A stretch of 32,000 bases of DNA, taken from Pseudoalteromonas translucida KMM 520. Lineage in GTDB: Bacteria; Pseudomonadota; Gammaproteobacteria; Enterobacterales; Alteromonadaceae. Position 1 is the first letter of the stretch. Every line of letters begins with the position of its first letter. Positions 1,169 through 32,000 of the stretch are shown piece by piece. The position numbers and the translations under genes are program-made. The stretch covers positions 420,001 through 452,000 of the forward strand of contig NZ_CP011034.1 in NCBI RefSeq assembly GCF_001465295.1. The letters are read 5' to 3'. The notes beneath the pieces were generated by a model. The model saw only the letters and a list, made by a program, of their open reading frames with translations. It was not told the DNA's origin and ran no database searches.

Positions 1169-1185
1169 TAATGCCGATCAGTTAA
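1169..1185. repeat. IS4-family left terminal inverted repeat
   Basis: TAATGCCGATCAGTTAA compared with the reverse complement of 2550-2566, TAATGCCAGTCAGTTAA. Confidence 0.85.
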
Positions 1186-1224
1186 GGTTAATTGATCGGT
1201 TGACCGATCTAAATGATCGTGAAT

Positions 1225-1259
1225 AATCCGTAATTAGTTTCGCTAATTACGGATTTTTT
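1225..1259 (+). terminator. Strong hairpin plus T-run inside the IS left end, ending directly at the transposase ATG. Acts as an intrinsic terminator and/or translational occluder.
   Basis: AATCCGTAATTAG (1225-1237), loop TTTCG, CTAATTACGGATT (1243-1255): a perfect 13-bp stem. The T6 run at 1254-1259 is followed by ATG at 1260. Confidence 0.7.
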
Positions 1260-1961: not shown

Positions 1962-1966
1962 AGAAA

Positions 1967-2557: not shown

Positions 2558-2566
2558 CTGGCATTA
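2550..2566. repeat. IS4-family right terminal inverted repeat
   Basis: See the left IR. It is embedded in the palindrome GCCAGTCAG-TGTTAA-CTGACTGGC (2539-2562). Confidence 0.85.
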
Positions 2567-2577
2567 CCCAACCTACC
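2567..2577. repeat. Right copy of the 11-bp target-site duplication CCCAACCTACC
   Basis: Identical to 1158-1168. Confidence 0.9.
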
Positions 2578-3855: not shown

Positions 3856-4140
3856 CTAAATTGCTAAAATACAATTTATCCTTAAAGTTATTGCTCACTT
3901 TTGTGATGTCCTTGCGTTGTCGTATCTCTTTTTCTTGCAAGAGAAAATGCTTTATAAATTGTCCCTATATGAAAATATATTCGTAAATTAAAATTAATTA
4001 CTATAGTTATATCATCCTTATAGTCTTTAATTTTAAAGTATGTGGTGAAAAGGCATATACTTATCTGAATATCATTTTAGGAGAAGTGTTACACCTGCGA
4101 CAATGATTGTATTTGTATTCGAAGATAAATAAAATGTTGA

Positions 4141-5975: not shown

Positions 5976-5978
5976 TAA

Positions 5979-8566: not shown

Positions 8567-9377
8567 AGTTTCAGTAGTAATTACTACATACAATAGAATT
8601 TTTTTTTTAGAAAGAGCATTAAGATCATTAGAAATTCAAACATTTAAGGATTTTGAAGTTGTCGTATCTGATGATTGCTCTGATGTAGATGTGTATAGTT
8701 ATTTAGAGAATTATAAAAGTAGCAGCAAGCTTACTATACGTTACCGACGAAACAGTGAAAATAAAGGTGCTTGCTACACTCGCAATGAAGGAATAAAAAT
8801 GGCAAAAGGGAAATATATCGCAGGCCTGGACGACGATGATGAGTTTATATCGGCAAGGTTAGAATTACTTTTAAAAGCGTATAATTCCAAGTTGTCTTTT
8901 GTCACGTCAAATACAATTGTAGTTAATAAATCAGGAAGTTCGAACTTATTTAAGTCAGAGAGGCTAATAGATCTAAATGATATGCTATGGGGGAACATAG
9001 CTGGTACGCAAATTTTAACAGAAAAAACAAAAATTTTAGAAATAGGTGGGTTTGATGAGGACCTAACATCAGCACAAGATGCAGATATGTGGTTAAGATT
9101 AATAGAGCGCTTTGGACCGGCATTAAGATTGAAAGACCCACTTTACGTTTTACATACCGAGCATGAACAGGGGCGAATTTCGACATCAAAACATAAAATA
9201 AAAGGGCTTTTACACGCTTATAATAAACATTCTAGTAAAATGAATAAAGGGCAAAAGTCACTACATAAATTTAAATTGGAGCTTTACAAAAAAAATAAAA
9301 AAATGAAACTAGAGGTTCTTAAGTTTTTTTCTTTCCGTTTTATTCCTTACTTGGTTTATCGAAAGCTATTTATTTAA
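8553..9377 (+). CDS. Glycosyltransferase family 2
   Basis: VSVVITTYNRIFFLERALRSLEIQT..VVVSDDCS, DxD region GLDDDDEF and QDADMWLRL. Contains a T10 tract at 8599-8608. Confidence 0.85.
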   Translation: MEKPKVSVVITTYNRIFFLERALRSLEIQTFKDFEVVVSDDCSDVDVYSYLENYKSSSKLTIRYRRNSENKGACYTRNEGIKMAKGKYIAGLDDDDEFISARLELLLKAYNSKLSFVTSNTIVVNKSGSSNLFKSERLIDLNDMLWGNIAGTQILTEKTKILEIGGFDEDLTSAQDADMWLRLIERFGPALRLKDPLYVLHTEHEQGRISTSKHKIKGLLHAYNKHSSKMNKGQKSLHKFKLELYKKNKKMKLEVLKFFSFRFIPYLVYRKLFI

Positions 9378-9394
9378 TTTTATAAGGTTATTTC

Positions 9395-10795
9395 ATGAAT
9401 TTTTGTGTTTTAAAAAATAAGAAAAAAACAACGTTTGAAAATTTTGATATTTTTAAAAACTGGGCTAAAGAACACTTAGGCTTAAAGTTTATTGGTAATG
9501 ACATTGTTTTTTACAGTGCTAGTTTAGCTACTAGACTTTTTATTTTTAAACTAGACGGTGTGCTTTATATTTCAGATTGTCTAGCTAATATGACTGAATA
9601 TTTAAATGGCGTTCAGGAGCTACAATCGAGTATCGACTTCTATAAAAAATTTGGTTTTATATTGCCGCCGTTCACTCAATATACGGGTGTGTATATGACT
9701 GCACCGTTTGTATGTTTTAACATAAGTGAAAAAGAGATAACGTTTAGCTCTAATTACCCTGAAAATAAAAATACTACAAGTTGTAATACGCCTGTTTTAG
9801 TTGATGAATTAGATAGTTTTTTTTCTAAATTAAAAAGTGATGATGAGCTTGAAATATTAGTAAGTGGTGGAATAGACTCTTCAGCTTTATTAGGCTTTGT
9901 TAATGATCGATTTTCTGTATCAAAGTCGATCATGTGTAAAATGTCGAGTCTTCCTAAAGAGGGAGTTATTGCAAATGAACTAAGTAACTCTATTAAAGTC
10001 CCTTTTGAATCTTATAATTTAGATGTGGACTTAAGTGATAGAGCATCTGAATTTATTGACGAAACTGGTGAATATATTTCTGATTCAATTTCTTTAGTTT
10101 TCCCTGAGTTATTTGAAAGAATCAATGACTTTAGTCAGGAAAAAAATATAATTGATGGTCAGGGAGCTGACTCTCTTTTAAACGGATTGCCCCTTGATAA
10201 AATTTATACTCTTTGGGCCAAGATATCTTGGGCAAGATATGTATTTTATCCATTATCTTTGCTTCCTATCTATAAAGATAAAAGCACCCCTATAAAACGA
10301 AAGTTTTATAGGTTCAGTAAAGCTTTAAAATGCCTAACTCAATTAGATTTTAGGCATTCAATTTTGTGCGCTATGACTGAAAATGAAAATATTGATACAG
10401 AATATGAAAAATATTTTTTATCTGAATTAAGTGTACTTTATAGCAAGTATAAAGACTGGCATTTAGTTTTAAGAATGGTTTATTTGTTTAGGGTATTACC
10501 AGCTCGAGAAATGCAAAAGTATTTACTTGCTAAAAAGTATAATATAAATATTGTAGCTCCTTTTTTAGATGATGATTTAATAAGTGCCTACCTTTTTACA
10601 CCTAACAGTGAAACGGTTAAAAGAGGAGTTTATAAATATCCGATTACAAAGCTAGCTCAGAATTATTGGCCTGGTTATTTTGAGACATCTAAGACTTCTC
10701 CATTTCAAATTAATTATCGGTTAGGTCTTAATGATATAAAGTCTTTTTCGATTGAAAGAATCAGAAAAACAATTAATGGAAGTAATATATTATGA
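9395..10795 (+). CDS. Asparagine-synthetase-like PP-loop adenylating enzyme lacking the N-terminal Cys nucleophile (putative uronic-acid amidotransferase/amide ligase)
   Basis: PP-loop motif ILVSGGIDSSALLGF lies about 160 aa from the start. The N-terminus is MNFCVLK, not MCG, and the pre-PP-loop domain is shorter than a class-II GATase domain. Confidence 0.65.
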   Translation: MNFCVLKNKKKTTFENFDIFKNWAKEHLGLKFIGNDIVFYSASLATRLFIFKLDGVLYISDCLANMTEYLNGVQELQSSIDFYKKFGFILPPFTQYTGVYMTAPFVCFNISEKEITFSSNYPENKNTTSCNTPVLVDELDSFFSKLKSDDELEILVSGGIDSSALLGFVNDRFSVSKSIMCKMSSLPKEGVIANELSNSIKVPFESYNLDVDLSDRASEFIDETGEYISDSISLVFPELFERINDFSQEKNIIDGQGADSLLNGLPLDKIYTLWAKISWARYVFYPLSLLPIYKDKSTPIKRKFYRFSKALKCLTQLDFRHSILCAMTENENIDTEYEKYFLSELSVLYSKYKDWHLVLRMVYLFRVLPAREMQKYLLAKKYNINIVAPFLDDDLISAYLFTPNSETVKRGVYKYPITKLAQNYWPGYFETSKTSPFQINYRLGLNDIKSFSIERIRKTINGSNIL

Positions 10796-11937
10796 AACCA
10801 TTGAGACTCTTATTTATAGTAAATGTTGATTGGTTTTTTATTTCTCACCGTTTATCTATAGCGAAAAAAGCTCTTGCAAGTGGTTATGAAGTTACTGTTG
10901 CTTGTAGATTTACTGAGCATAAAGATGAATTAGCATCGATGGGTTTCAATGTCGTGGATATTCCTTTTACTCGAAGCGGTGGTGGTATAGCTTCTGAAGT
11001 AAATACGATTAAAACTATTAAAGCTACGATTAAAGATTTACGGCCTTCATTGATTCATGCCATTACGATTAAGCCAGTTTTGTATTCTGGTATGGCACTT
11101 CATGTTATTAAGCAAGACATTCCATTCGTTGCAGCTATATCAGGGCTTGGCTATGTATTTGCAGCAAGTTCGATACGAGCAAAAGTAACAAGACTTATTG
11201 CATCTGCCTTTTATAAAGTAGCTTTGTCACAAAAATATAAAACAGTTATTTTTCAAAATACTTCTGATGAAAAGATTTTAACCGATGTTGCAAAATTAAA
11301 AGGATCTGACAAAGTCTTAATTAAAGGCTCTGGCGCTGATCTCTCTGTTTATAATTATTATCCTGAAAATATTTGTAACACCATAAAAATAGTTATGGCA
11401 TGCCGCTTACTTAAAGAGAAAGGTGTGTATCAATACATAGACGCTGCCAGAATTATTAAAGAACAGTACCCTAATACTGAGTTTTTACTCGTAGGTACCC
11501 CTGATTTAGAAAACCCAAATACAGTAAAGCAAATTGAGATTGACTCTTGGGTAAACCAAAATTTGATTACTTACCTAGGACACAGAAGTGATATACCAGC
11601 TATATTTGCTGATTCAAATATAGTTTGTTTACCATCGTTTTATGGTGAAGGTGTACCAAAAGTGCTTATTGAAGCTGCTGCCTGTGGAAGAGCTATTGTA
11701 ACAACCGATAATCCTGGTTGCAGGGACGCTATAATTGAAGGTGTGACTGGGTTCACAGTTCCTATTCGTGATTCTAAAGCGCTGGCAATCGCTCTCCAAA
11801 AACTTATAAGTGAACCAGAGTTGAGAGTGTCAATGGGCAATAAAGCAAGGGCTTTTGCTGAAGCTGAGTTTGATGTAGATAGCGTTGTAGCTAAGCACTT
11901 AGATATTTATACTAATTTAATTGGTAAAACTCAATGA
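10792..11937 (+). CDS. Glycosyltransferase family 4 (GT-B, group 1)
   Basis: C-terminal GT1 signature EGVPKVLIEAAACGRAIVTTDNPGCRDAIIEGVTGFTVP. ATGA overlaps at both ends. Confidence 0.85.
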   Translation: MKPLRLLFIVNVDWFFISHRLSIAKKALASGYEVTVACRFTEHKDELASMGFNVVDIPFTRSGGGIASEVNTIKTIKATIKDLRPSLIHAITIKPVLYSGMALHVIKQDIPFVAAISGLGYVFAASSIRAKVTRLIASAFYKVALSQKYKTVIFQNTSDEKILTDVAKLKGSDKVLIKGSGADLSVYNYYPENICNTIKIVMACRLLKEKGVYQYIDAARIIKEQYPNTEFLLVGTPDLENPNTVKQIEIDSWVNQNLITYLGHRSDIPAIFADSNIVCLPSFYGEGVPKVLIEAAACGRAIVTTDNPGCRDAIIEGVTGFTVPIRDSKALAIALQKLISEPELRVSMGNKARAFAEAEFDVDSVVAKHLDIYTNLIGKTQ

Positions 11938-20863: not shown

Positions 20864-21734
20864 TTACTGCGTTGGAACAGCAAAAACCTCAGACTCATCG
20901 TTATCTAAATCAATAAACGCAATAGGCTGGTCACTCTGTATTGTGTTGGCGTAATTTTTAATAAACGGCACAACATATAACTGATTAAACCTATCGTCAC
21001 ACATAAACTCAGTAGGGTTTGTGCTTGTCAGCTTATACTCTTCTGTAATACTGTGCTGTAATAATAGCGGATTGTTTTCAGGCTTTTTAAGCCCACATTC
21101 TAATTGGCCTAATGCGCTATTCCCCCAGTTGCCGCTAAACGGTATAGGCGCTGAAACAAGCTCAATGTTCACATCGTTAGCAATAATGTTATGCTTGCGA
21201 CAATAATCGAGCTGACGGTTTATTACAGACTGCGTTAATTCATTTATCGTATACGTTTGTGTGTCGGCCCAATCAAAACGACTTATCCCAAACTTATAAA
21301 TAATCTCTCTCGTATTCGCAGTTGCAACAACGCCGCTCCATACATAAAAAATAATATGCGTGTGCGTAAACGGGCTATATGCATCCTCGCTTTTTCGCTG
21401 TTTTTCACATATCGGCAGTAACAGCGTAGGCTGCTCAACTCCCGGGTAATTTGAAAAATTCCTTACATAGTCAGTTTCCCCATTTGTGTATGTAATGCGA
21501 GTATGAATACGTTGCTTGCCTGTACTTTCTTTTTCACCACGTTCTACCTGTACTGACTTTATCGAGAGAGCTTTTAGCTTATTTGAAATTCGGTATAAAT
21601 CGTTAATAATTTTTATATCATTGCATACCATTTCACATACCCTGGCACCGTTTCGTCTTTGTCGTAATGCAGACAGCGTTGTGCGTGCTATGAAGTAATT
21701 GGCAATAACAATATCAATGATGTACTTATCTTTT
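20864..21734 (-). pseudogene. C-terminal fragment of a 551-aa protein of unknown function, split by IS66 (the six-frame ORF 20864..21763 borrows its start from inside the IS)
   Basis: Joins in frame to 24140..24932 once the IS and one TSD copy are removed (..NNFKQKD|KYIIDIVIANY..). 793 + 863 nt = 552 codons. Confidence 0.8.
21727..21734. repeat. Left copy of the 8-bp target-site duplication TATCTTTT of the IS66-family element
   Basis: An identical octamer lies at 24140-24147, directly outside the terminal repeats. Confidence 0.9.
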
Positions 21735-21814
21735 GTGAGCGTCCGGCAAATTGCGTCTGACAAATTAATCTCAACTTAAGTAAGTTACAACCAAACAATT
21801 ATTTGGAGTAACTT

Positions 21815-22114
21815 ATGAGAATTATGCGCAGCCCAGAGCAATGGCAAACCATCATCCATGAACAACAATCAAGTGGTTTAACCATCATTGATTATTGCCG
21901 GCAACATCAATTATCAATGACTAGCTTTTATGCGGTAAGAAAGAAACTCGGCCTATCATCGAATAATTTCGTTCGCGCCAAAATTACACAGCAAGTCGAA
22001 ATAGTTGATGAACAACCATCCATCACGTTAACTGTTGGCAAGGCAAACGTTAGTTTGCCAGCCACAACCTCTGCAACGTATTTAAGCCAGTTACTACGCG
22101 AGTTTGTTCAATGA
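21815..22114 (+). CDS. tnpA: IS66-family accessory protein TnpA (small HTH protein)
   Basis: 99 aa, the first ORF of the element. ATGA overlap with tnpB. Confidence 0.8.
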   Translation: MRIMRSPEQWQTIIHEQQSSGLTIIDYCRQHQLSMTSFYAVRKKLGLSSNNFVRAKITQQVEIVDEQPSITLTVGKANVSLPATTSATYLSQLLREFVQ

Positions 22115-22458
22115 AAATGTTTGTTGAGCCGTCAGAGGTTTTTCTGCATCGGGATTTTGTCGACTTTCGAAAAAGTATTAATGGCTTAGTGAGTATTGTT
22201 GAAGATGAGCTTGTTCGCGATGCCTATACCGGTACGTTGTTTGTATTTTGTAACAAGGCCAAAGATAAGCTGAAAATTCTATACTGGGATAAAACAGGGT
22301 TCGCGCTTTGGTATAAACGACTTGAAAAGCAAAAATTCAAATGGCCAAGTAAACTATCGAGCCAGGAATTTGAATTAACCTATCAACAACTGGATTGGTT
22401 GTTATCTGGATATGACGTGCTTGGCCATGAACCGCTGCACTATCAGTCACCGATCTAA
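22111..22458 (+). CDS. tnpB: IS66-family accessory protein TnpB (IS66 Orf2-like)
   Basis: 115 aa with the VDFRKSINGL..LFVFCNKAKDKLKILYWDKTGFALWYKRLEKQKF pattern typical of IS66 Orf2. Confidence 0.88.
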   Translation: MKMFVEPSEVFLHRDFVDFRKSINGLVSIVEDELVRDAYTGTLFVFCNKAKDKLKILYWDKTGFALWYKRLEKQKFKWPSKLSSQEFELTYQQLDWLLSGYDVLGHEPLHYQSPI

Positions 22459-22554
22459 CTAGATCTTTTATCAGTCAACGATCGTGTACGCAAGTCCTTA
22501 TTCTATTTGCGTTACAAAGCAGAATCATCTGTCTGTTCTTGCTAAACTCGATGG

Positions 22555-24117
22555 ATGAAAATTGATACTAACTCACTCCCTGACGACCCAGAACAACTCA
22601 AGCAAATGTTGCTTGAGTTGCAGGCTGAAACTACCCAAGAGTTAGCGAAAAAAGATAAAATCATCAGTGAACAAGCCATTCAAATTAATCAGTTTATTGA
22701 ACGCTATGAAATTGCCAAGCGTAAACAGTTTGGTAAAAGCTCCGAGCAACTCCCGGGGGCGGGGGAAACCTTCAATGAAGCGGAAGAAATCATTGATGAG
22801 GCCGATAAAACGTTATTAGCTGCGGCTGATAGTCACAGTAAGGTCACAATTAAAAACAAACCGACGCGCAAGCCACTGCCAAAAGAATTACCTCGAAAAG
22901 TGGTGACAATTGATTTGTCCATTGATGAAAAAGTGTGTGATTGTTGCCAAGGTAAGCTGCATAAAATTGGTGAAGCTCGTAGTGAAAAACTTGAGTTTGT
23001 TCCTGCGTACATCAAAGTGATAGAGACAGTTCGACCGAAATATGCCTGTAAAAGGTGTGAGCAAACTGGCACAGAAAATTCTATAAAAGTTGCACCTGTT
23101 CCAGCAACCCCCATTCCTAAAGGCATTGCCACCAGTAGTTTGCTGAGTCAAATCATCAGCGCCAAATATCAATATGGGTTGCCGCTATATAGGCAAGAAA
23201 AAATGTTCAATGAGTATGGTATTGAGCTGAGTCGTAAAACCATGTCAGATTGGATAATACGGTGTAGTGAATTACTGATGCCATTAGTTAACGAGCTAAA
23301 AGCAGCATTGCTTAGTCAAGCGGTGCTCCATGCCGACGAAACGCCCTTAAAGGTGATTAAGGCCGATAATAGCAGCAGTTACATGTGGGTGTATTGTTGT
23401 GGTAGCGATTCGGTGGCCGCCAATAGTTTGCCAAATATTATCCTCTATGATTATCACAACTCTCGTGCCGCAGCTTGTGTAGTTGATTACCTTGGTGACT
23501 ATGACGGTTACCTGCAAGTCGATGGTTATGCAGCGTACGGAAAAACAGATGCAATATTGGCAGGTTGTATGGCGCATGCACGTCGAAAATTCATTGATGC
23601 GAAAACGGTGCAAACGAAAAACAAAACCGGCAAAGCCGATGTTGCCTTAAGTCTTATTAGAAAACTCTACGGCATTGAGGCAAGCTTAAAAGACAAAACG
23701 GCCGCAGAAACGTATCAAGCACGGCAGGAAAGTTCAAAACCCATCATCGATAAACTTCACCATTGGATTATCGAAAATAAAGATAAAGTGCCACCGAAAA
23801 GTAAACTTGGTGAAGCGATTACGTATTGGTGTAACCAAGAACATAAGCTCATCACCTATTTAAAAGATGGTCGCATAAATATAGATAACAATCGCGCTGA
23901 GCGGGCTGTGAAACCGTTTGTGATTGGCAGAAAAAACTGGTTATTCTCCAATACCGCGCGGGGTGCAACGGCTAGCGCCGTGCTCTATAGTATTATTGAA
24001 ACCGCGAAAGCGAACGGACTGTTGGTCGACAACTATTTGCAAACCTGCCTAGATGAGCTTGCTAAAAAGCCTGAAAGTGTAGAGCACTTGCTACCTTGGA
24101 ATGTTAATCAAGGCTAG
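22555..24117 (+). CDS. tnpC: IS66-family DDE transposase TnpC
   Basis: 520 aa. N-terminal leucine-zipper region, zinc finger CDCCQGKLHKIG..YACKRCEQ, DDE core (HADETPLKV, LQVDGYAAY, NNRAERAVKPFVIGRKNWLF). Confidence 0.92.
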   Translation: MKIDTNSLPDDPEQLKQMLLELQAETTQELAKKDKIISEQAIQINQFIERYEIAKRKQFGKSSEQLPGAGETFNEAEEIIDEADKTLLAAADSHSKVTIKNKPTRKPLPKELPRKVVTIDLSIDEKVCDCCQGKLHKIGEARSEKLEFVPAYIKVIETVRPKYACKRCEQTGTENSIKVAPVPATPIPKGIATSSLLSQIISAKYQYGLPLYRQEKMFNEYGIELSRKTMSDWIIRCSELLMPLVNELKAALLSQAVLHADETPLKVIKADNSSSYMWVYCCGSDSVAANSLPNIILYDYHNSRAAACVVDYLGDYDGYLQVDGYAAYGKTDAILAGCMAHARRKFIDAKTVQTKNKTGKADVALSLIRKLYGIEASLKDKTAAETYQARQESSKPIIDKLHHWIIENKDKVPPKSKLGEAITYWCNQEHKLITYLKDGRINIDNNRAERAVKPFVIGRKNWLFSNTARGATASAVLYSIIETAKANGLLVDNYLQTCLDELAKKPESVEHLLPWNVNQG

Positions 24118-24139
24118 ACGCATTTGCTCAGACGCTTAC

Positions 24140-24147
24140 TATCTTTT
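24140..24147. repeat. Right copy of the 8-bp target-site duplication TATCTTTT
   Basis: Identical to 21727-21734. Confidence 0.9.
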
Positions 24148-24932
24148 TGTTTAAAGTTATTTTTTAAGTCGGGACGTTGATGCTCTGGAAAATAAGCTGA
24201 TGTGTATACTTTTATGTCGGTGACACTCGCTGCGTCACTAAATCGTTGAAGCTCTTGGTACACACTTGCTTTAAATGTCTCTACTTTTTCTGGTGTGTTC
24301 ATGTCTTCAAGGTCATAAGACACCGCCTGTATACTTTTAGCATAATAGAGTAATTTACTGCGCGTCTCGGTTATACGCTTTTCAACTTTATTTCTTGCCT
24401 CTAAAAATTCAGCGCTCAGGGTATAGCGATAGTCGCGCTTTGAGTAAATGTAATTAACCTCAACATTTAACGATAATAAGTTTTTGTCAGTGGCTCTTCT
24501 ATCGGTGAGTATGTTATCCAACTCGCGTTGTAACTCTGTTTTAATTTGTTTTGCACCGAGTGTTTTTTGCTTTTTAAAGGCACACGCGCATAAAGTGACC
24601 TTGCATTCTTTAGAAATATACTGAGATAAATAGCTCAACATGCGCCGACGCGGCTTTGATGGCTTTGTGGTATACCCTAAAAATTGTGTAATGTGTTTTT
24701 GACACGCCCGCTTATGGCTAGAGGCAGAGTAAGGAATGGTGCTTTCGTACTGTTTAAACAAACCAATAATAGGTTGAAATATCATTTTGTTAGTAAATTC
24801 ATCATACCATTGGCTTTTGTTGAGCTGCTTTAATGGCATACTCATGAGCTTATCGAACGCATCTTGAGCCACTTCTAGCTCTTCAGGTAATGGGTATGGC
24901 ATTGTATTGTTTGTGCATTGTTTGCAAATCAT
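24140..24932 (-). pseudogene. N-terminal fragment of the 551-aa unknown protein split by IS66 (the six-frame ORF 24114..24932 reads into the IS end)
   Basis: See 20864..21734. The Cys-rich N-terminus is MICKQCTNN. I recognise no family. Confidence 0.8.
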
Positions 24933-25063: not shown

Positions 25064-26230
25064 TTATGCAATCCCGCGTTCAATCATCATTTCATTAAAT
25101 GCAAAACCATCCTGCCGTGAGGCATTAGCAACATACGGCGCGTACACGTCAAATAATAAACGCGTGTCGCTGTGGCCTAACATGTGCGAAATGTACAGTG
25201 GGTTTTCATGCGCAGCGATATGCAGAACGGCTGCGGTGTGGCGTGTTTCGTAAGGGCGGCGGCGTGCAAGCCCCGCTTTTTGGAGTATGGGATACCAAAG
25301 CTGCTTACTTATAAAGTGGGTATCCAGCGGTTTATTTTTATGCGTAAATACAAATTCACTGTTTGCTTGTTCTTGTAAGCGCTTAAACAATGTAAATAAT
25401 GTATCGCACATTTTTAAGTCGCGGCGCGACTTAGGTGTTTTTACATCACCCAACTCACCATTAACCCAATTGTGTCGAATACGAATGAGCCGATGATTAA
25501 AGTCGATATCTTCCCAGCGAAGACCATGTATTTCACAGCTTCGCATACCAGTCCAAAAACGCACTGTAAAATAATCGCGCCACTCATCGGATGTGCATTC
25601 TAAAAAGCGTTGTACTTCATCGGCAATAAGTGGCAATGAGTTAGCGCGTTCTTCTTTTAGGGTTTTATAGCGGCGTAATGGGTAGGGAAAGCTGTGCTCT
25701 TCTGCGGCTAAACTTAGTATGGCAACAAACGGCCAAAGAATGCCATTAATACGCTTATTAGAAAGCTTACGGGCCCCTTTGGTATCGCAAACCATTAAGC
25801 TTTCTCGAAAATAATCCACATTAGCCAGCTTGATCTCGTTTACTAATATATTGCCAAATTCAGGGATGAGGTAACGGTCGAGCGTATTACGTACCACGCT
25901 TTGATAACTGCTTTTCCATTTTGCTTTTTGACGATCGAACCATTCATTCGCGTAATCGTTAAAGAATGGATAAAGACGATCGGGGTGTTTTTCGCGTTGT
26001 AGCGCCTCAAACTTAGCGACTTTTTTACTTTCAGGAAAATAATCACGATACTGAAACGTATCTAAGTCAATTTCAGCATTAATTTTTTTAAGTGTTGCGT
26101 TGGCTTTTTTAAGGTTTACAGGGGTCGCCATGAGCTTAGTGCCTTCACGAAAGCGCTGCCCATAAATGTGTAAGTCAAATTGGATACGCCCATTGGGGCG
26201 AATGCGAATGTGAGCCATAATGGCCTCCAT
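25064..26230 (-). CDS. int: Tyrosine-type site-specific integrase with N-terminal arm-binding (DUF3596-like) domain. The true start is probably the ATG at 26218.
   Basis: AHIRIRPNGRIQFDLHIYGQRFREGT arm-domain pattern. Catalytic residues: R in FWTGMRSCEI, K in KTPKSRRDL, R-H in YETRHTAA, and H plus Y in MLGHSDTRLLFDVYAPY. GGAGG lies 5 nt upstream of the ATG at 26218. Confidence 0.9.
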   Translation of the reverse strand: MEAIMAHIRIRPNGRIQFDLHIYGQRFREGTKLMATPVNLKKANATLKKINAEIDLDTFQYRDYFPESKKVAKFEALQREKHPDRLYPFFNDYANEWFDRQKAKWKSSYQSVVRNTLDRYLIPEFGNILVNEIKLANVDYFRESLMVCDTKGARKLSNKRINGILWPFVAILSLAAEEHSFPYPLRRYKTLKEERANSLPLIADEVQRFLECTSDEWRDYFTVRFWTGMRSCEIHGLRWEDIDFNHRLIRIRHNWVNGELGDVKTPKSRRDLKMCDTLFTLFKRLQEQANSEFVFTHKNKPLDTHFISKQLWYPILQKAGLARRRPYETRHTAAVLHIAAHENPLYISHMLGHSDTRLLFDVYAPYVANASRQDGFAFNEMMIERGIA

Positions 26231-26237
26231 CAGTTAA

Positions 26238-26358
26238 TGGATCTATAAATAGATCTATCCCTCACCGATGGAATTCGTTAGAATTGGATCATCGGCTGGG
26301 TCGCGTTTAAACATGGTGCAGCCGGTACGGGGTAGGGAGGTTGCCGCCTCTTTACCCC
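26238..26358. other. GC-rich, hairpin-dense non-coding segment immediately upstream of int (candidate att/regulatory site or structured RNA)
   Basis: Palindrome GATCTA-TAAA-TAGATC at 26240-26255. Hairpin CCGATG..CATCGG at 26265-26295, enclosing the direct repeat GAATT-N5-GAATT. A 30-nt hairpin GGGGTAGGGAGG-TTGCCG-CCTCTTTACCCC at 26329-26358. Confidence 0.4.
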
Positions 26359-26689
26359 AACTGCTTATAAGATACTAACTCGCAATAATACGTAATCAAT
26401 CTGAAGTATTAAACCTGACGCTAACAGCGTTAAAAATTTCTGATTTAGAACCACTAAATAACGAAATTTTTGCCTTGTTTTCGACCCGGTTTTCTTGCTT
26501 CAAAATAGCTTACTTAATTAAGCGACTTGGTATTATTCCCAATCGTGCTATGCCGTAATGCTTTTACGCTTTAGGCATTAAATTCACAATTGTTCAAAAT
26601 TTCACTATTTAATATAGCAAGTGCTGTCTATTTGTCCAGTGTTTTGTTGTTTTTAATATTCCTCCTTTTTACCCTCTACCCACTCGGGA

Positions 26690-27991
26690 TCAAACATCAA
26701 GCTCCCCTTGTGCTCCTTGAGGTTTGTGTTCATTTTTATCTGTATCGGATGGTTGTTCAAGTTGTGATGGCTTATAATCCTTGTGTAACGCTAAAACTTC
26801 TTTAAGCCGACTGTCATCCCTTTCAACAGAGAGTACACTGAGTGGCACAGTACTTTTTAAACATTTAAAAATCTCTAGAAGTAGTTGTCCAACCCGGTTT
26901 TCAGTGACCTGAAAGAACATTTCTTCTATTTCTTTTGCACTTTTAAGTTTTAGATCTTTAAAGTCTTTTACTGTAAAGCGAAATACGTACTCCTTTGCTT
27001 TTTCAATCTTATCAATACTAAAAATAGTTAAAGGTCGTGTGAAATTCTCTCCTTCGTTATTTAGGTCCCCATCGTCACCTATATTGTTGATAGATACTAG
27101 GCTTTCACTAATGTATAAGTGTCCAGAATTTATTGATTTATAGGATTTTTTACAATTTAGCACTTCCATATTCAATGCGAAAAAGTCTATTTTTCCTTTA
27201 ATAATGACATTTGCTAGCATTTTCTTTTTCTTTCTAAACTCCTCAATACCCGCTAACGGGCATGTGATAGATATATCAGAGCCTTGCAAAAGGAGATCAT
27301 TACCTCGCTGTAAAAAGTGAATGCATCGGTCTGTGTTTTGGTCGAGCATCTGTTTTATGTCCTCTACCGCTAATTCATTTAATATTAAAGGGACTGTTAA
27401 TTTAATGTTTTCATCTACTGTTACCTGTGACACATGACCGTTTATTTGAATAAAAATAGCTTTATTTACTGGGTCAAATTCAATAAAGTCAAAGCTGTCA
27501 TATTTACTTGCTAAAAAAACAACCATTTCAAAAGTAGCCTTTGATATTGGATCCCCTTCAATTTTTTGATGCTCATCTAGGTATTTTAAATGAGTTTTTT
27601 GGCCCTCAGTGCATTTATAGCTTTTAAAGCCCGGGAGCTGTGGATGGTTTTTACTCGTTCTAATAGTATGATCAGTAACACCTAATTTAATGAGCCCCTT
27701 TTCTTGCGTAATAGATAAAACTGGGCTTTTTAAGAGATATAAAGGCAGCTGAATCAAAAATTCGGCATTGACGGAAAAAGAACAATCTTTGTGCTGTCCT
27801 GAGATTTTGTTAAGGTTTAAGTTACATGTATACCAGTACGGTTCTTCCCCTGCTATAAGGGTTAGTTGTTTTGTCTTTTTATCAATGAAACCTGTCACAT
27901 TTTTACATTTGTTCTTATTTTTTGAACTAGATATGGATTTAGTGAATCCTTTTAACTTACGTATTTCTTTGTCTGTAAAGTAAGCGTCCAT
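26690..27991 (-). CDS. Unknown 433-aa protein with apparent three-domain DnaN (beta sliding clamp)-like pattern and an acidic/disordered C-terminal tail. Third gene of the recombinase operon.
   Basis: Strong SD (GGAGG at 28001-27997, 5-nt spacer) overlapping the upstream stop codon. By-eye alignment to E. coli DnaN in all three domains is given in the findings. No family assignment was possible without a search. Confidence 0.45.
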   Translation of the reverse strand: MDAYFTDKEIRKLKGFTKSISSSKNKNKCKNVTGFIDKKTKQLTLIAGEEPYWYTCNLNLNKISGQHKDCSFSVNAEFLIQLPLYLLKSPVLSITQEKGLIKLGVTDHTIRTSKNHPQLPGFKSYKCTEGQKTHLKYLDEHQKIEGDPISKATFEMVVFLASKYDSFDFIEFDPVNKAIFIQINGHVSQVTVDENIKLTVPLILNELAVEDIKQMLDQNTDRCIHFLQRGNDLLLQGSDISITCPLAGIEEFRKKKKMLANVIIKGKIDFFALNMEVLNCKKSYKSINSGHLYISESLVSINNIGDDGDLNNEGENFTRPLTIFSIDKIEKAKEYVFRFTVKDFKDLKLKSAKEIEEMFFQVTENRVGQLLLEIFKCLKSTVPLSVLSVERDDSRLKEVLALHKDYKPSQLEQPSDTDKNEHKPQGAQGELDV

Positions 27992-28001
27992 GACGACCTC
28001 C

Positions 28002-29798
28002 CTAATGTTTAATTAATTTAATAAACTGTTCTACATATTCAAGTGTATGGATAGATATTTTGCTCTTTGGCTTTAGGTAAATAGTCAATGAACTTGGCCC
28101 TTTTTGCTGACGTAAAACGTTGATATGTTTGTATTCACTTTTCTTTGCATAACGCTTTTTAACCATTTCTAACGGTCGCTTACTGTCTACTTTTCTATTT
28201 ATGTGAAGCTCAAATTCACATCGCACCCATGCCCACTCTGTATGTCTAAATACAGTATTAAACGCAGACGCACCTTTGGTGGTACAGGCAATATTTAAAC
28301 GTAATGCGTGTTTGTGTTTACACACTGTTATGTTGGGGAATGATTTATATGCTGTTAGATATTTATTATTGATAGGCTGAGAGCGGTGACGACACCCACA
28401 TTCCCAAATAGCACTGATAGACTCAAAGTTAATTATTGCTTCTTCACCATTAGGAACAGGGTTTATTAGCTTATCAAAAAGAAAGTTAGTCAGTGTTAAC
28501 TGGCTCTTTTCAAGCGTACTCAACCACTTTTCTTCCAAGTATGTATTGCTTAGTGTGTCAGTTATATGCTCCTTTTGTGCGGCTTGGCTTAAATTATCTA
28601 TCTGTAACACATGTACCCTTAGTGCGTGTTCAGTTACTGTTATTGATTGACATCGTTTTTCAGCAAGTGTTTGCTGATCATAATCAGGAATAATATGGCT
28701 TAGTAGTCTAGATAAATCATTAGATGACGCACTTAGCCCCATCAGGTAGCGTAACGCAGAGTGTGAAAACTGCTTGTGAGTATGAGGATTATGATATTTA
28801 CTTATTATTGGTAAAAGCCAATCGATATCATGTAGGTAAGACCACCGTGTAGTTGCATAAAAAATATGGCCAATTTGTTTTCCCATATTATCTAAAAAAG
28901 CAGCACTATTAACCTCAATTGCCTCTCTGCCTTTGAACCAATAATCTAATCGAACGGCCACTGACTTTTCTGATAGCACTTCCTGCTCAAGAGGTGTTTC
29001 CCCGCGCAAATTGTCGGGCGTATAGCTAACGCAATGTAACATTTGCAGCATAAATATATGCACACCGCTGTGACGTAAATGGTGAAAGTTAAAGTGAATA
29101 CCAAATAATATTCGTAATGCCCTCGATACGGGTACTAAATAGGATATAGCGCGAGAGGATAGTGTCTCAAGATCATGACCTATAAGTGGTAAATCTTGAT
29201 TACTATGTTTTTTAATATCAAGCAGGGTATAAAAAAAATAGCGGTATCGTGTGGGTATCGTTGTATAAACCATACGGGAGGAGCCACTTTTTGTTTTACC
29301 TTCACGGGTGTTGGTAATATTGAGTGTTAAAAGCCCCGTCTCACTTTTAAATTGAATATCTTTAATGCGTAATCTAAGTACTTCACCACGGCGCAACATA
29401 GCGTAAAAACCGAGCAAAGCAGCAACAATACAAAATAAAATGTGTAATGTGGGTTTTGTTGCTCCATTATCGATAAGTGCATTTATAAGCGAGTCACATT
29501 TATCTACACATAAGCGGGCTGCGCTAACAGAAGGGGGAATTATTGGTGTGCTAAAATTAGATAAATCCAGAGCTTCGGTTTTCTCTTGCCAGCTTAAAAA
29601 CGCTAAAAATTTATAAAAGGCTTTTTTTACTGCATCAGACTTAATTGAAACAAAAATAACCTGTGCCCACTCATTAATCGACTCCTCAATGAGTGCATCA
29701 GTTAAAGTCAGAGGAAAGGGAGTTAGTATCTTTGTGAGTGACGTATATGTTCTAATAGTTCCCTTCTTAAGGGCTGCTTTTTTAGGGCCGTATATGTT
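28002..29798 (-). pseudogene. C-terminal two-thirds of a ~950-aa giant tyrosine recombinase (core-binding region, catalytic domain, ~250-aa C-terminal extension). It is separated from its N-terminal part by a frameshifting 47-bp duplication.
   Basis: I translated this frame codon by codon and it is open from 29798 to 28002, with no start codon before the TTG at 29417. Catalytic set: R in MLRRGEVLRL, K in EGKTKSGSS, HHLRHSG, and GH..TTRWSYLH. Confidence 0.8.
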
Positions 29799-30901
29799 CT
29801 AATAGTTCCCTTCTTAAGGGCTGCTTTTTTAGGGCCGCCATTAATTATCCAATCTTTTGCGAAGTCAAACATCAAGCGTGGCAAAATATTATCAGTATCC
29901 CAGGGAGGGGGTTCTATTTCATTTACCTCATTTATGTCGACAGCTCTAAGTAACTTTCCATGTTGCCATGGGTTCTTAGGCCTATGTGTTGATAATGGCG
30001 TAAACAACGTCGTATCCTGATTATTCTTGTAAATATCAGCTAATTTTTGTTTGCAGACATCATCGTCAGTTATTAGCCCCACATGACGTTCAGGTTGAGC
30101 TAAATCTTTAATAAAAACAGGATTTATTTCATACTGGTTATACCAATGAATTTGAAATAGTCTCGACCATTGTGTTTTTGCTATGTGTTGAATGCCATTT
30201 GTATCCAGCCAGTCCTTAAGCTCTTTTACTAAAGACGCTGTTGTGGTTAACTTAGCGCGTTGTGCATAGTAATCACGCAGTAAGTTTTGATTTAAGAGTG
30301 ATAAAGAGTAATGAGTAGGAAAATGGGGGATATCTGTATTTTTATACTGGTGTTTAACGCGCAGTCTAGGATAAGGGCATTCATTAGTTATCGATTGGGA
30401 GTCATTTAAAATAGTTGATATATCGCCAAGCGATAAAGGCGCTATCTCAAAGCCAATCATAATCACCATAAAAGCAGTGCCGAGCTCACGCTGCTCATAA
30501 AAATTTTCGAGGTCTATTTGGTAGCATGAGAACACACGATGTGATAGCCCAGCTTCGTTTGCTATACTTTCAAACCACTCATGATCTGCGTCAGTAAGTA
30601 AGGATTTAACAAGTTCAGAGCCATCCTGAGACTCAGGCAACTGCCACTGGCATGCATAACGTAAATAATAAAGAATGTTTTGCAAAGCTTTAGTGTAGTG
30701 TACTCGCTTACCTGTTGGCACAGTTGCTATTATTCTTTGTGCTTTCTTTATTTCTTTTTCTTTTAATGAACGTGTTTGCTGCTGCATTACCGGCCATTTA
30801 GTTAAAAGTTCAGCAATAACTTGTGTATCAGCACACGGCTGTGCCGTTTTACTTAGGTAGTCTTGAATATCTGTTGCATGTATCAATGCGGGGTTAGACA
30901 T
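29723..30901 (-). pseudogene. N-terminal third of the giant tyrosine recombinase (unknown N-terminal domain), terminated prematurely after the 47-bp duplication
   Basis: The peptide GPKKAALKKGTIRTYT is encoded twice, at the end of this ORF and at the head of the downstream open frame. Deleting one 47-bp copy fuses both into 2853 nt = 950 aa. The ATG at 30901 overlaps the upstream gene by 8 nt. Confidence 0.8.
29743..29836. repeat. Perfect 2 x 47-bp tandem duplication (GTATATGTTCTAATAGTTCCCTTCTTAAGGGCTGCTTTTTTAGGGCC)
   Basis: Copy 1 is 29743-29789 and copy 2 is 29790-29836, with no mismatches. 47 is not a multiple of 3. Confidence 0.95.
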
Positions 30902-32000
30902 AATGTAACTCCTTAACGCCGATATGTTGGTCTAGCCCGTTTAAGTAAGCTTTTAGAACGCCAATATTTTTTGGGAACATAATGTCGCTACCTAAATGTT
31001 CTCCTGTATTTTCATGGCCCATTAGGCGATCAATATCTTGAGCCGTAAGTGGGGTAAGACTAATAATTGTATGAGCACATTGAGCAAAATAGTGCCTGAG
31101 CTGATAAGGAACAACACCAGCCCAGTGTTTGTTCATAAATACACGTAATGCACGAGCACTTAATGGTGTTGGAGTTTCTGACTTATCATAAATGTACCAA
31201 AGCTCAGGTAAATCATCATGTAAGCTTAGTTGGGAATGAAGTGATGCTTTTAGCTCAGTGTAATGCGTAATTTCTCTAAGCAGGTAATCACTTAAAATAA
31301 CTTGCCTTAAGTGGCCTTTATCTTTGACAAACGTAACGTGAGTGAATGAAAAATAATGAGAGAGCAAACTAATACTGTGAGTTGGCCTTACTCCTGTTAA
31401 TACAATAAACAGCAATGCTATGCGAAAGCTGACAGCATTAAAGTAGGCTAACCACTGCGCACGTGAAGCTCTACTGGTTGGTTTTAGTTGTTTAACATAA
31501 CTATCAATACGATTAAAAAAGTCAGTGACGTCTTTATCTTTAGGAACACGGCGACTACCGAGCATAATTGCAGGCGCTGCAACATGATCACTCTTTCCTT
31601 TTGTTTTAATGATTTTATATTGACCCATACTCCCTTTATGTTTCAGATCTGGATCAATATTTTCGTAAGGCGTATCTCTTAGGCGCTCAGTAATAAGGTT
31701 AACCGTTTTACTTTCGAGATGAACTTTGAAATACGAATGCAAATTCTCTTTTCGTATGAATTCAAATAAAAAGCCGATATATCTGTGATGGGCATCAAAA
31801 ATTTTAAATCTCAGACGGTCGCTGCTGAGCCGTTGATAGCATATAGCGCTAGTATGGTGTGCTTTAACTGATTTTACTAAATGCTTTCTTGGGATAGGGG
31901 TCAAGGTTTCGTCTGCGCGAGCACATAACGATATATAACGATAAAAGGTATTTTTTCTCGCCGGTTTAAAAGTTTTGAGTACTAGTGGCCTCGTCCAGTG
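30894..32000 (-). CDS. Tyrosine-recombinase-like protein, first visible gene of the operon. Partial: the frame stays open to the window edge, so the TTG at 31904 is probably not the real start.
   Basis: R in LTGVRPTHSISL, K-hairpin in VKDKGHLRQVIL, LRHYFAQ and LMGHENTGEH. I translated upstream of 31904 and found no stop through position 32000 (..HWTRPLVLKTFKPARKNTFYRYISLCARADET-LTPIPRK..). Confidence 0.7.
   Translation of the reverse strand, partial: HWTRPLVLKTFKPARKNTFYRYISLCARADETLTPIPRKHLVKSVKAHHTSAICYQRLSSDRLRFKIFDAHHRYIGFLFEFIRKENLHSYFKVHLESKTVNLITERLRDTPYENIDPDLKHKGSMGQYKIIKTKGKSDHVAAPAIMLGSRRVPKDKDVTDFFNRIDSYVKQLKPTSRASRAQWLAYFNAVSFRIALLFIVLTGVRPTHSISLLSHYFSFTHVTFVKDKGHLRQVILSDYLLREITHYTELKASLHSQLSLHDDLPELWYIYDKSETPTPLSARALRVFMNKHWAGVVPYQLRHYFAQCAHTIISLTPLTAQDIDRLMGHENTGEHLGSDIMFPKNIGVLKAYLNGLDQHIGVKELHYV

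What the first reader, a model, noticed from the sequence alone, without database searches (positions are those of the whole stretch)
26690..32000. Translationally coupled operon: tyrosine-recombinase-like protein, giant ~950-aa tyrosine recombinase and clamp-like protein; a candidate undescribed mobility module
Three minus-strand genes are tightly coupled. A and B overlap by 8 nt. The B stop codon is embedded in the SD of C, with a 10-nt gap.
- A (over 368 aa, partial) has a recombinase fold signature.
- B, once the 47-bp duplication is removed, is about 950 aa. It has an unknown ~400-aa N-terminal domain, a full R-K-H-R-H-Y catalytic set with a long insertion, and a ~250-aa Cys/His-containing C-terminal extension.
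- C (433 aa) looks like a beta sliding clamp.

The two-recombinase-plus-third-gene layout recalls Tn554 tnpA/tnpB/tnpC. It also loosely recalls GInt ginABCD and RIT trios. However, B is much larger than Tn554 TnpB (630 aa). C is nothing like the small TnpC or GinD proteins. I know of no described recombinase module with a clamp homologue.

A dedicated clamp-like ring could act as a processivity or topology factor, a synapsis factor, or a replication-fork targeting factor for a site-specific transposon.
Basis: partly seen in the sequence, partly recalled or inferred. Interest (0 to 1): 0.85.

Follow-up and report, generated by a model that had tools for sequence, protein, structure and literature searches.

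The report
Recombinase module with its own clamp
The three genes belong to a conserved, undescribed five-gene unit of marine bacteria, made of three integrase-type proteins, a small protein and a copy-like relative of the DNA sliding clamp; it is probably the engine of a mobile genomic island, and this copy is broken.

Summary
A (30894..>32000), B (28002..30901) and C (26690..27991) lie on the minus strand. A and B overlap by 8 nt. The B stop lies in the Shine-Dalgarno (SD) sequence of C. B is split by an exact 47-nt tandem duplication, and repair gives 950 aa.

B keeps an invariant R-K-H-R-H-Y catalytic set. A has a tyrosine-recombinase (YR) catalytic fold but no conserved nucleophile tyrosine. 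A confident model of C matches only bacterial and phage DnaN beta clamps. Most C relatives end in a QxDLF beta-clamp-binding-like motif.

The unit is larger than described. About 25 loci from Pseudoalteromonas, Vibrio, Shewanella, Psychromonas and relatives share a fixed order:
- a ~157-aa protein, then A, B and C;
- a LexA-box-like promoter;
- a 120-nt conserved, hairpin-forming leader;
- a canonical arm-binding integrase, INT (window 25064..26230).

The unit usually lies in capsule or O-antigen regions. It has no Pfam, NCBIfam, PADLOC or Rfam family and no literature match. It is absent from the viral collection, and its only plasmid match is one ambiguous record.

Its composition parallels SE and GInt elements: an ordinary recombinase, a large one, a non-catalytic fold protein and a small accessory. 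The clamp is the addition. Element ends and mobility were not demonstrated.

Verdict: a new variant of multi-recombinase integrative elements. Interest about 0.7.

The parts
30894..32000 (-). Gene A, cut by the window end. It is a tyrosine-recombinase-fold protein, 515-546 aa when full length. It keeps R, K, YxxR-H and GH but has no conserved nucleophile Tyr.
28002..30901 (-). Gene B, a large tyrosine recombinase of 950 aa once repaired. It is a pseudogene here. It has an unknown N-terminal region of ~350 aa, a catalytic domain with an invariant RKHRHY set and a ~65-aa insertion, and a conserved C-terminal extension of ~260 aa.
29744..29837 (-). Exact 47-nt tandem duplication (2 x 47 nt) that shifts the frame of B.
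   Evidence: orthologues are intact
26690..27991 (-). Gene C, a three-domain protein with the DnaN (beta sliding clamp) fold and a disordered C-terminal tail. Most relatives end in QxDLF(G)F; this subfamily ends in QGELDV.
26611..26639 (-). Promoter-like site TGGACA-16 nt-TATATT. It overlaps a LexA-box-like CTG-N10-CAG (26624..26639) that is conserved in 23 of 23 loci.
26368..26587 (-). A ~220-bp insert between the promoter and the leader. It is absent from the closest relatives (L008, L001, L003) and shared with L009. This position varies in length in all lineages.
26247..26366 (-). A 120-nt conserved non-coding block that ends just before the SD of INT. Its hairpin (12-13 bp arms, loop CGGCAA) shows compensatory changes. 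It could be a structured 5' leader or a recombination site.
   Evidence: no Rfam family
25064..26230 (-). INT, a canonical integrase with an arm-binding domain (Arm-DNA-bind_2, Phage_int_SAM_3, Phage_integrase). Its likely start is 26218 (384 aa). It is the fifth conserved gene of the module.
20864..24932 (-). Probable cargo next to INT: a 272-aa ORF (24114..24932) and a 299-aa ORF (20864..21763). The same pair sits intact right after INT in three Shewanella loci. Here an IS66 element (22111..24117, + strand) splits it.

Best explanation
The three genes are the middle of a conserved five-gene recombination module that most likely drives an integrative, transposon-like genomic island of marine Gammaproteobacteria.

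**Shown**
- The order is fixed: small protein S157, then A, B and C as one tightly coupled operon.
- After C come a separate promoter with a LexA-box-like operator, a 120-nt conserved hairpin-forming leader, and a canonical arm-binding integrase, INT.
- B is a large tyrosine recombinase (YR) with a complete catalytic set.
- A has the recombinase catalytic fold without the nucleophile tyrosine.
- C has the DnaN clamp fold. In most relatives its flexible tail ends in a beta-clamp-binding-like motif.

**Inferred**
- INT and B perform strand exchange at the island ends.
- A and S157 are DNA-binding or regulatory subunits, like Tfp/GinC and Srap/GinD of SE and GInt elements.
- C forms a ring on DNA, or docks on the host beta clamp. 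Either would tie recombination to replicating DNA, as a copy-out type movement would need.
- INT expression responds to DNA damage.
- Cargo lies downstream of INT. It includes toxin-antitoxin (TA) genes, Fic genes, small gene pairs and possibly polysaccharide genes.

In this window the module is inactive, because a 47-nt duplication breaks B.
For: **Synteny and distribution**
- The order S157-A-B-C-INT holds in every locus long enough, across six genera.
- Only 20 loci were found among 185,579 species genomes.

**Protein identities**
- B catalytic residues are invariant, and B hits integrase models.
- A has a recombinase fold.
- C has the clamp fold.
- 16 of 33 C tails carry Q-x-[DEGS]-[LM]-[FWYLV], against 0.19 expected by shuffling. 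The known beta-binding consensus is QLxLF, also found at the C-termini of transposases (PMC4549789).

**Parallel with known elements**
- The composition matches SE and GInt cores: an ordinary YR, a large YR with a long N-terminus, a non-catalytic YR-fold protein and a small accessory. The host range matches too (PMC10214605, PMC9345347).

**Signs of horizontal movement**
- The module is 94-96% identical between different species or genera while the flanks are unrelated.
- Its position relative to ugd or rmlB differs between congeners.
- Psychromonas marina carries an INT 3' remnant that is 100% identical in protein to the INT of another species. About 0.2 kb of downstream DNA and, after an IS insertion in the other genome, a further 0.86 kb are 98-99% identical.
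- The same 272-aa and 299-aa gene pair follows INT in the window and in Shewanella.

**Regulation**
- The LexA-like box is present in 23 of 23 loci.
Against: - No element ends were found. Neither terminal inverted repeats nor direct repeats are shared between loci. No tRNA target is present. No empty site could be examined.
- The two circular-looking records are ambiguous. L026 could be an assembly cycle through a repeated ugd. pSA70-4 carries nrfA and nnrS and matches chromosomal loci.
- The module is essentially absent from plasmids and from viral contigs.
- INT is far more conserved (67-95% between genera) than A and B (30-49%) or C (16-26%). In Pseudoalteromonas, INT plus its downstream DNA is 87% identical while S157 to C is 67%. 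INT and the operon may therefore have separate histories.
- There is no sequence-level link to SE, GInt or Tn554 proteins.
Confidence: 0.5

Rival explanations
1. There are two units, not one. INT with its leader is an ordinary integrase gene of an island. S157-A-B-C is a separate operon with a non-mobility role, such as anti-phage or anti-plasmid defence or DNA-damage processing. In that role recombinase-like proteins would cut or trap DNA and the clamp would scan it.
For: - Evolutionary rates differ sharply: INT is at least 67% identical between genera, C at most 26%.
- The Pseudoalteromonas loci are mosaic, with different identities on either side of the C-INT junction.
- INT has its own promoter.
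- The neighbourhood is rich in TA, Fic, SNF2 and IS genes.
- Fast-evolving proteins are typical of conflict systems (established knowledge).
Against: - No PADLOC model hits any of the proteins.
- INT was never seen without the operon, nor the operon without INT, in any locus long enough.
- B keeps a full recombinase catalytic set.
- The composition matches SE and GInt cores.
Confidence: 0.2
2. The module is a host-retained recombination system that acts on capsule or O-antigen loci. It would capture, exchange or rearrange polysaccharide gene blocks (serotype switching) rather than move itself.
For: - 11 of 12 annotated neighbourhoods contain polysaccharide genes, usually convergent with INT.
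- The position of the module relative to ugd or rmlB differs between related species.
- INT and the adjacent polysaccharide genes share the same identity level in Pseudoalteromonas.
Against: - One locus, Shewanella aestuarii, shows no polysaccharide genes within 10 kb.
- No repeated recombination sites flank polysaccharide blocks, and the conserved block occurs once per locus.
- The distribution is patchy, 20 loci in 185,579 species genomes. That fits an accessory element better than a host function.
Confidence: 0.15
3. The module is a remnant of a prophage or phage satellite. C would be its replication clamp and the recombinases its integration functions.
For: - Phage DnaN clamps are among the best structural matches.
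- INT resembles phage integrases at 28-29% identity.
Against: - No relative of B is present in IMG/VR, and the conserved block is absent from viral contigs.
- No polymerase, helicase, capsid or terminase genes lie nearby.
- C always sits inside the recombinase operon.
Confidence: 0.05

Closest known systems
[quoted passage not shown]
   Same: - The cast is the same: an ordinary catalytic tyrosine recombinase, a large one with an unusually long N-terminus, a recombinase-fold protein lacking catalytic residues, and a small accessory protein.
- The core genes are clustered.
- The host range is the same: Vibrionales, Alteromonadales and Aeromonadales.
- Both are chromosomal and lack transfer genes (PMC10214605, PMC9345347).
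   Different: - The gene order differs: small protein, fold protein, large YR, clamp, then ordinary YR under its own promoter.
- SEs have no clamp.
- A keeps R, K, R and H residues, whereas Tfp lacks the RHRY set.
- No 13-19-bp terminal inverted repeats were found.
- There is no BLAST-level similarity: A, B and C have no real matches in 72,556 plasmids, which by the literature include SE carriers.
GInt genomic islands (ginABCD)
   Same: The core has four genes: two catalytic tyrosine recombinases, one non-catalytic recombinase-fold protein (GinC) and a small protein (GinD). It sits at one end of a cargo-bearing island in Gammaproteobacteria.
   Different: GInts have no clamp. Their order and host preference differ (Pseudomonas, Pectobacterium, Enterobacterales). 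Sequence relatedness was not tested here.
Tn554 (tnpA, tnpB, tnpC)
   Same: It combines an ordinary and a large tyrosine recombinase with a small third protein, and it is a site-specific transposon.
   Different: It belongs to Firmicutes. TnpB is 630 aa, against 950 aa for B. It has neither a recombinase-fold pseudo-enzyme nor a clamp. Homology was not tested.
Bacterial and phage DnaN beta sliding clamps
   Same: C shares the three-domain fold over its full length. The best match has E 1.4e-12, probability 1.0 and TM 0.45-0.58.
   Different: - Identity is only 10-14%, and no Pfam or NCBIfam DnaN model hits C.
- C is not in a dnaA-dnaN-recF or replisome context.
- C carries a disordered tail of ~25 aa (residues 410-433, pLDDT below 50) that ends in a clamp-binding-like motif, which DnaN lacks.
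- The family has only 33 representatives among 1.84 billion.
Transposition proteins that use the host clamp (Tn7 TnsE, IS transposases with C-terminal QLxLF)
   Same: [quoted passage not shown]
   Different: Here the motif sits on a protein that is itself a clamp homologue, not on the recombinase. Binding was not tested.

Membership tests
Tyrosine recombinase superfamily (B) | Catalytic R-K-H-R-H/W-Y set in a Phage_integrase-type domain | tested here: met
   R487/R488, K521, H590-x-x-R593, H662 and Y672 are invariant in 17 sequences. Model hits: Pfam PF00589 E 3.7e-4, below the gathering score; PHROG_1 integrase 2.2e-9; XerA model 4.6e-4.
Tyrosine recombinase superfamily (A) | Catalytic-domain fold | tested here: met
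   The profile of 42 members hits XerA 4a8e at E 1.3e-3 over the K-R hairpin, xxRH and GH boxes. Six of 42 members hit PF00589, best 2.2e-7.
Tyrosine recombinase superfamily (A) | Nucleophile tyrosine about 9-10 residues after the last His | tested here: not met
   No Tyr is conserved after H482 in 42 sequences. Y505 and Y520 are confined to the close subfamily.
DnaN beta sliding clamp | Three tandem clamp domains | tested here: met
   The model has pLDDT 83.9 and pTM 0.74. Foldseek gives 478 PDB hits at E<=1e-3; the 50 best listed are all DnaN. Phage DnaN proteins top the viral library.
DnaN beta sliding clamp | Sequence membership (Pfam DNA_pol3_beta models, NCBIfam DnaN) | tested here: not met
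   No hit at E<=1. No PDB sequence hit with profiles. No DnaN among the representative hits.
DnaN beta sliding clamp | Head-to-tail dimer ring that encircles DNA and is loaded by a clamp loader | not testable with these tools
   Only a monomer model was available.
SE (strand-biased circularizing integrative element) | An intA-tfp-intB operon plus srap at one end, with proteins in the Tfp and Srap similarity clusters | tested here: not met
   The order is S157-A-B-C-INT. tblastn of A, B and C against 72,556 plasmids found nothing, apart from a B match to the module's own copy in pSA70-4. No SE protein sequence could be fetched for a direct profile comparison.
SE (strand-biased circularizing integrative element) | 13-19-bp imperfect terminal inverted repeats (C and C') with a 6-bp footprint | tested here: inconclusive
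   No shared terminal repeats were found within 600 bp upstream of S157 and 300 bp downstream of INT, nor in 2.5-kb scans. The true ends are unknown.
SE (strand-biased circularizing integrative element) | attL x attR recombination that leaves no empty site, from one strand | not testable with these tools
   This needs PCR or sequencing of a live strain.
RIT (recombinase in trio) | Three adjacent catalytic tyrosine recombinases flanked by long inverted repeats | tested here: not met
   Only B and INT have full catalytic sets. No long flanking inverted repeats were found.
tRNA-targeting integrase island (P4-like) | An arm-binding integrase next to a tRNA or tmRNA gene that serves as att site | tested here: not met
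   INT has Arm-DNA-bind_2 plus Phage_integrase. No tRNA or tmRNA is present in the window or in five 17-23-kb loci.
Known anti-phage defence systems (PADLOC) | A match to a defence-system protein model | tested here: not met
   No hits for S157, A, B, C or the neighbouring cargo proteins.

The most novel reading that the evidence does not exclude
This would be a distinct class of integrative element in which tyrosine recombinases work with a dedicated DnaN-like ring. The ring's tail would plug into the host beta clamp, so that excision or insertion is coupled to passing replication forks and switched on by the SOS response. Such elements would carry capsule or O-antigen gene blocks and small defence-like cargo between marine bacteria. 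The conserved 120-nt hairpin block next to INT would be either a new regulatory RNA or a folded recombination site.
Probability: 0.3. Interest if true: 0.9.

Novelty: new variant of a known kind. Interest (0 to 1): 0.72.

Why it matters
How multi-recombinase elements (Tn554, SE, GInt) move is still unresolved. In particular, it is unclear how a tyrosine recombinase could give copy-out-like products without leaving an empty site.

A relative that encodes its own clamp homologue, carrying a clamp-binding-like tail, points directly at a replication-coupled step and offers a handle for testing it.

The module also marks capsule and O-antigen regions, which decide phage and grazer susceptibility in marine Vibrio, Shewanella and Pseudoalteromonas. 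If it moves those regions it would be a driver of serotype turnover.

Finally, C is a rare case of the beta-clamp fold recruited outside replication. The SOS-box promoter and conserved leader add an unreported regulatory element.

Tried and rejected
- **PDB sequence searches.** Profiles of C, B and S157 found nothing useful.
- **First C model.** With 5 sequences it was too poor to use (pLDDT 40).
- **hhalign.** Comparisons of A or B against the INT alignment were uninformative because the alignments were shallow.
- **Terminal repeats.** Searches for inverted or direct repeats at the block ends gave only chance-level matches and terminator hairpins.
- **L001 palindrome.** A perfect 20-bp palindrome with a 6-nt spacer lies 0.8 kb upstream of S157 in L001, where L001/L003 homology breaks. 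It is not shared by other loci, so it was not adopted as an att site.
- **Conserved leader as a stand-alone gene.** There was no hit in viral contigs, and the six metagenome hits were all spurious GC-rich coding DNA. Each locus has one copy.
- **L026 as a circular element.** Rejected as proof, because 700 nt of the contig are not held and a repeated ugd could create an assembly cycle.
- **pSA70-4 as an excised circle.** Rejected as proof, because it carries nrfA and nnrS and is collinear with chromosomal loci.
- **Fetching SE-bearing records.** LC081338, AP024167 and MK347425 are not in the collections.
- **The gene-free 1.9 kb after INT in L006.** It holds an uncalled 396-aa ORF, not an RNA.


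Full report
**Observation**

The minus strand of 26690..32000 carries the genes as described.
- A is open to the window end.
- A and B overlap by the 8 nt ATGTCTAA. The B stop TAG is followed by GGAGGTCGTC and then the ATG of C.
- B is split into 392-aa and 471-aa ORFs by an exact tandem duplication of 47 nt at 29744-29790 and 29791-29837. Removing one copy gives 950 aa.
- Orthologues at 83-95% identity are intact at 949-950 aa. This copy of B is therefore a pseudogene, or carries an assembly error.

**What the proteins are**

Curated libraries say little.
- A has no Pfam or NCBIfam hit.
- B hits Phage_integrase only weakly (E 3.7e-4, below the gathering score) and an XerA model (4.6e-4). It hits PHROG_1 integrase at 2.2e-9.
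- C hits nothing, and PADLOC hits none of them.

The families are small.
- C has 5 clusters by word search and 33 representatives among 1.84 billion by full HMMER. None of them is a DnaN.
- B has 48 clusters.
- A has 83 clusters.

In 17 B sequences the following are invariant: R487/R488, E490, K521, H590/H591, R593, H662 and Y672. They sit in the standard order and spacing, except for a ~65-aa insertion between HxxR and GH...Y. This is a complete catalytic set.

The catalytic part of B spans roughly residues 350-680. It is preceded by ~350 residues and followed by ~260 residues with no detectable relatives. The Cys and His residues noted in the C-terminal part are not conserved.

A profile of 42 A sequences matches archaeal XerA (4a8e, E 1.3e-3). 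The match covers the beta-hairpin K-R, the box VVPYQLRH (His replaced by Tyr) and LMGH. Six of 42 members reach Pfam Phage_integrase. R358, K381, R385, R455, H456 and H482 are invariant, but no tyrosine is conserved downstream of H482. A is best read as a recombinase-fold subunit without its own nucleophile.

**The clamp**

A first model of C from 5 sequences was poor. A second model from 33 family members reached pLDDT 83.9 and pTM 0.74, and shows three beta-alpha-beta-beta-beta double repeats.
- Foldseek against the PDB gave 478 hits at E<=1e-3. The best are bacterial DnaN clamps: 1vpk at 1.4e-12, probability 1.0, ~415 aligned columns, TM 0.45-0.58 and 10-14% identity.
- The viral library returned phage DnaN proteins.
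- The last ~25 residues are disordered.
- In 16 of 33 family members they end in Q-x-[DEGS]-[LM]-[FWYLV], for example QQDLFGY, QPDLFNF and QLGLF. Shuffling gives 0.19 expected, and the motif occurs in 2 of 969 internal windows.
- This fits the beta-clamp-binding consensus QLxLF, which typically sits at C-termini, including those of transposases (PMC4549789).
- The subfamily in this window has a degenerate version, QGELDV.
- Binding to the host clamp, or to C itself, is an inference.

**The real unit**

Loci came from three sources: metagenome and genome contigs holding C and B relatives, 20 loci from one genome per species, and contexts of distant A relatives.

Every locus long enough has the same order: a ~157-aa protein (S157; ~125 aa and too diverged for phmmer in one Shewanella group, and not detected in two further loci), A (515-546 aa), B (925-982 aa), C (415-524 aa), then a 384-396-aa integrase with Arm-DNA-bind_2, SAM-like and Phage_integrase domains. 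In the window that integrase is 25064..26230. S157 lies beyond the window end.

The hosts are Pseudoalteromonas, Cognaticolwellia, Vibrio (including one V. cholerae), Photobacterium, Shewanella, Psychromonas, Tolumonas and Thaumasiovibrio. The closest DNA is a Cognaticolwellia MAG (96%) and a Pseudoalteromonas nigrifaciens MAG (88%).

S157, A, B and C are translationally coupled throughout.

**The C-INT spacer**

Aligning the C-INT intergenic regions of 19 loci showed two features conserved across genera.

The first is the sequence ACTGGACAAATAAACAG, followed by TATA(T/G)T.
- It reads as a -35/-10 promoter: TGGACA, 16 nt, TATATT at 26638..26611, scoring 10 of 12 with a TG extension.
- It overlaps a CTG-N10-CAG motif with an A/T-rich centre. 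This is the pattern of gammaproteobacterial LexA boxes (established knowledge), and it is present in 23 of 23 loci.

The second is a 120-nt block (window 26247..26366) that ends just before the SD of INT.
- RNAalifold predicts a hairpin with 12-13-bp arms and the loop CGGCAA, nested in an outer stem, plus a second stem-loop.
- The hairpin has 6 pairs changed on both sides. The covariation score is 0.144, against 0.069 in shuffles (0 of 500) and 0.02-0.07 in slid controls.
- It also has G.U pairs that only work on the INT-sense strand.
- No Rfam family matches. The block occurs once per locus.
- A pattern scan found it in neither IMG/VR nor JGI metagenomes.
- It may be a structured 5' leader. 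The arms-plus-6-nt-spacer layout also resembles a recombinase core site. I cannot decide between these.

Between the promoter and the block the length varies from 47 to about 270 bp. The window and L009 share a ~220-bp insert there.

**Surroundings and signs of movement**

The window upstream of the module is a Wzx/Wzy-type polysaccharide cluster: Wzz/Wzc, Wzy, glycosyl and sugar transferases, Polysacc_synt_2, ugd and an epimerase. Eleven of twelve annotated neighbourhoods contain such genes, usually convergent with INT. The rest of the flanks are IS elements, toxin-antitoxin pairs and Fic genes.

No tRNA is nearby.

Between species the shared block runs from about 0-360 bp upstream of S157 to within 0-75 bp of the INT stop, and the flanks are unrelated.

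Several observations speak for horizontal movement.
- Blocks are 94-96% identical in different species.
- The module sits on either side of ugd or rmlB in congeners.
- In Psychromonas marina the last 119 codons of an INT are 100% identical in protein to the INT of Psychromonas sp. RZ22. About 0.2 kb of following DNA and a further 0.86 kb, separated in RZ22 by an IS insertion, are 98-99% identical. This remnant lies 5.5 kb upstream of a second, different, complete module.
- The window's 272-aa and 299-aa ORFs are split here by IS66. The same pair sits intact immediately after INT in three Shewanella species, at 46% and 61% identity.

The last two points suggest that DNA downstream of INT travels with the module.

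Several observations weigh against a simple picture.
- No shared terminal repeats were found.
- Both circular-looking records are ambiguous.
- The proteins have essentially no matches on 72,556 plasmids or in IMG/VR.
- INT is much more conserved than its partners. In Pseudoalteromonas it shares the 87% identity of the adjacent chromosome, while S157 to C is 67%.

**Comparison with known systems**

The closest described systems are the SEs of Vibrio and relatives, and the GInts.
- Both have a clustered core of an ordinary tyrosine recombinase, a large one with a long N-terminus, a recombinase-fold protein without catalytic residues, and a small accessory protein.
- SEs share the host range seen here (PMC10214605, PMC9345347).
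- The present module has the same cast (INT, B, A, S157) plus the clamp. It differs in gene order and puts the ordinary integrase under its own SOS-type promoter.
- Membership in SE, GInt, Tn554 or RIT is not supported. The order differs, no terminal repeats were found and there is no BLAST-level similarity.
- Remote homology could not be tested, because the reference proteins could not be fetched.
- Literature searches for a recombinase module with a clamp homologue returned nothing relevant.

**Mechanism proposed**

Shown: the composition, the catalytic residues, the clamp fold, the tail motif, the promoter and box, and the conserved synteny.

Inferred:
- B and INT exchange strands at the island ends.
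- A and S157 act as non-catalytic architectural or regulatory subunits.
- C forms a DnaN-like ring. Through the ring, or through its tail in the host clamp's cleft, it brings the complex to replicating DNA. This would fit the replication-dependent, copy-out-like behaviour reported for SEs.
- DNA damage induces INT.

I put this at about 0.5. The rivals are:
- two independent units, with the operon serving defence or repair (0.2);
- a host-retained system that rearranges polysaccharide loci (0.15);
- a phage or satellite remnant (0.05).

**Verdict**

The module is an undescribed variant of multi-recombinase integrative modules with a dedicated clamp homologue. The copy in this window is inactivated. 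Interest 0.72.

Noticed in passing
window 26611..26639 (minus strand): A promoter-like site, TGGACA-16-TATATT, overlaps a LexA-box-like CTG-N10-CAG upstream of the integrase. It is conserved in 23 of 23 related loci. A few loci (L012, L014, L025, L032) also have LexA-like boxes upstream of the S157 gene.
   Followed up: partly
window 26247..26366 (minus strand): A 120-nt non-coding block is conserved at 85% across six genera. Its hairpin (loop CGGCAA) shows compensatory changes. It matches no Rfam family and is absent from the viral contigs and metagenome contigs scanned. It could be an RNA leader or a recombination site.
   Followed up: yes
window 26368..26587: A ~220-bp insert lies between the promoter and the leader. 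It is shared almost identically with Pseudoalteromonas sp. APC 3691 (L009) but absent from the closest relatives of the module. Other lineages carry different inserts at the same spot. It may be a small mobile insert.
   Followed up: partly
window 20864..24932: An IS66 unit (TnpB-like ORF at 22111..22458, transposase at 22555..24117) splits a pair of unknown genes of 272 aa and 299 aa. The same pair sits intact right after the integrase in Shewanella basaltis, S. algicola and S. frigidimarina.
   Followed up: yes
window 55..3719: The capsule tyrosine-kinase gene wzc appears interrupted. A Wzz/Wzc N-terminal part (55..1185) and a GNVR/ATPase part (2547..3719) are separated by IS4-type transposase ORFs (1260..2557).
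   Followed up: partly
window 4000..11000: The central polysaccharide genes (Wzy polymerase, Asn-synthase-like and others) have 29-31% GC, against 38-43% for the flanks. This is typical of horizontally exchanged serotype-specific genes.
   Followed up: no
L018 1896..2453 (Psychromonas marina): The last 119 codons of an integrase are 100% identical in protein to the INT of Psychromonas sp. RZ22, and the downstream DNA is 98-99% identical. This remnant lies 5.5 kb upstream of a second, complete but different module. It looks like a trace of tandem or successive elements.
   Followed up: partly
L026 (Psychromonas MAG contig, 12,648 bp) and L039 (Shewanella putrefaciens pSA70-4, 19,445 bp, circular): Two records present the module in a circular or circularly permuted form. 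Both can be explained by assembly through repeats or by chromosomal fragments, so they are not proof of an excised circle.
   Followed up: partly
L001 308..353: A perfect 20-bp inverted repeat with a 6-nt spacer (TAGGGG) lies 0.8 kb upstream of S157. It sits exactly where 98% identity between L001 and L003 ends. All four closest contigs also break just beyond it. It was not found in other genera.
   Followed up: partly
INT (window 25064..26230) and A (window 30894..32000): Both proteins have Tyr in place of the first His of the HxxR box (PYETRH and PYQLRH). The A profile also weakly matched a protelomerase that has PYGLRH.
   Followed up: no
L007 15529..16140, L031 17368..17952, L011, L010: In Vibrio loci a 194-203-aa gene of unknown function follows INT; in L007 and L031 it overlaps the integrase stop by 4 nt. 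It could be a sixth, lineage-specific member of the module.
   Followed up: partly
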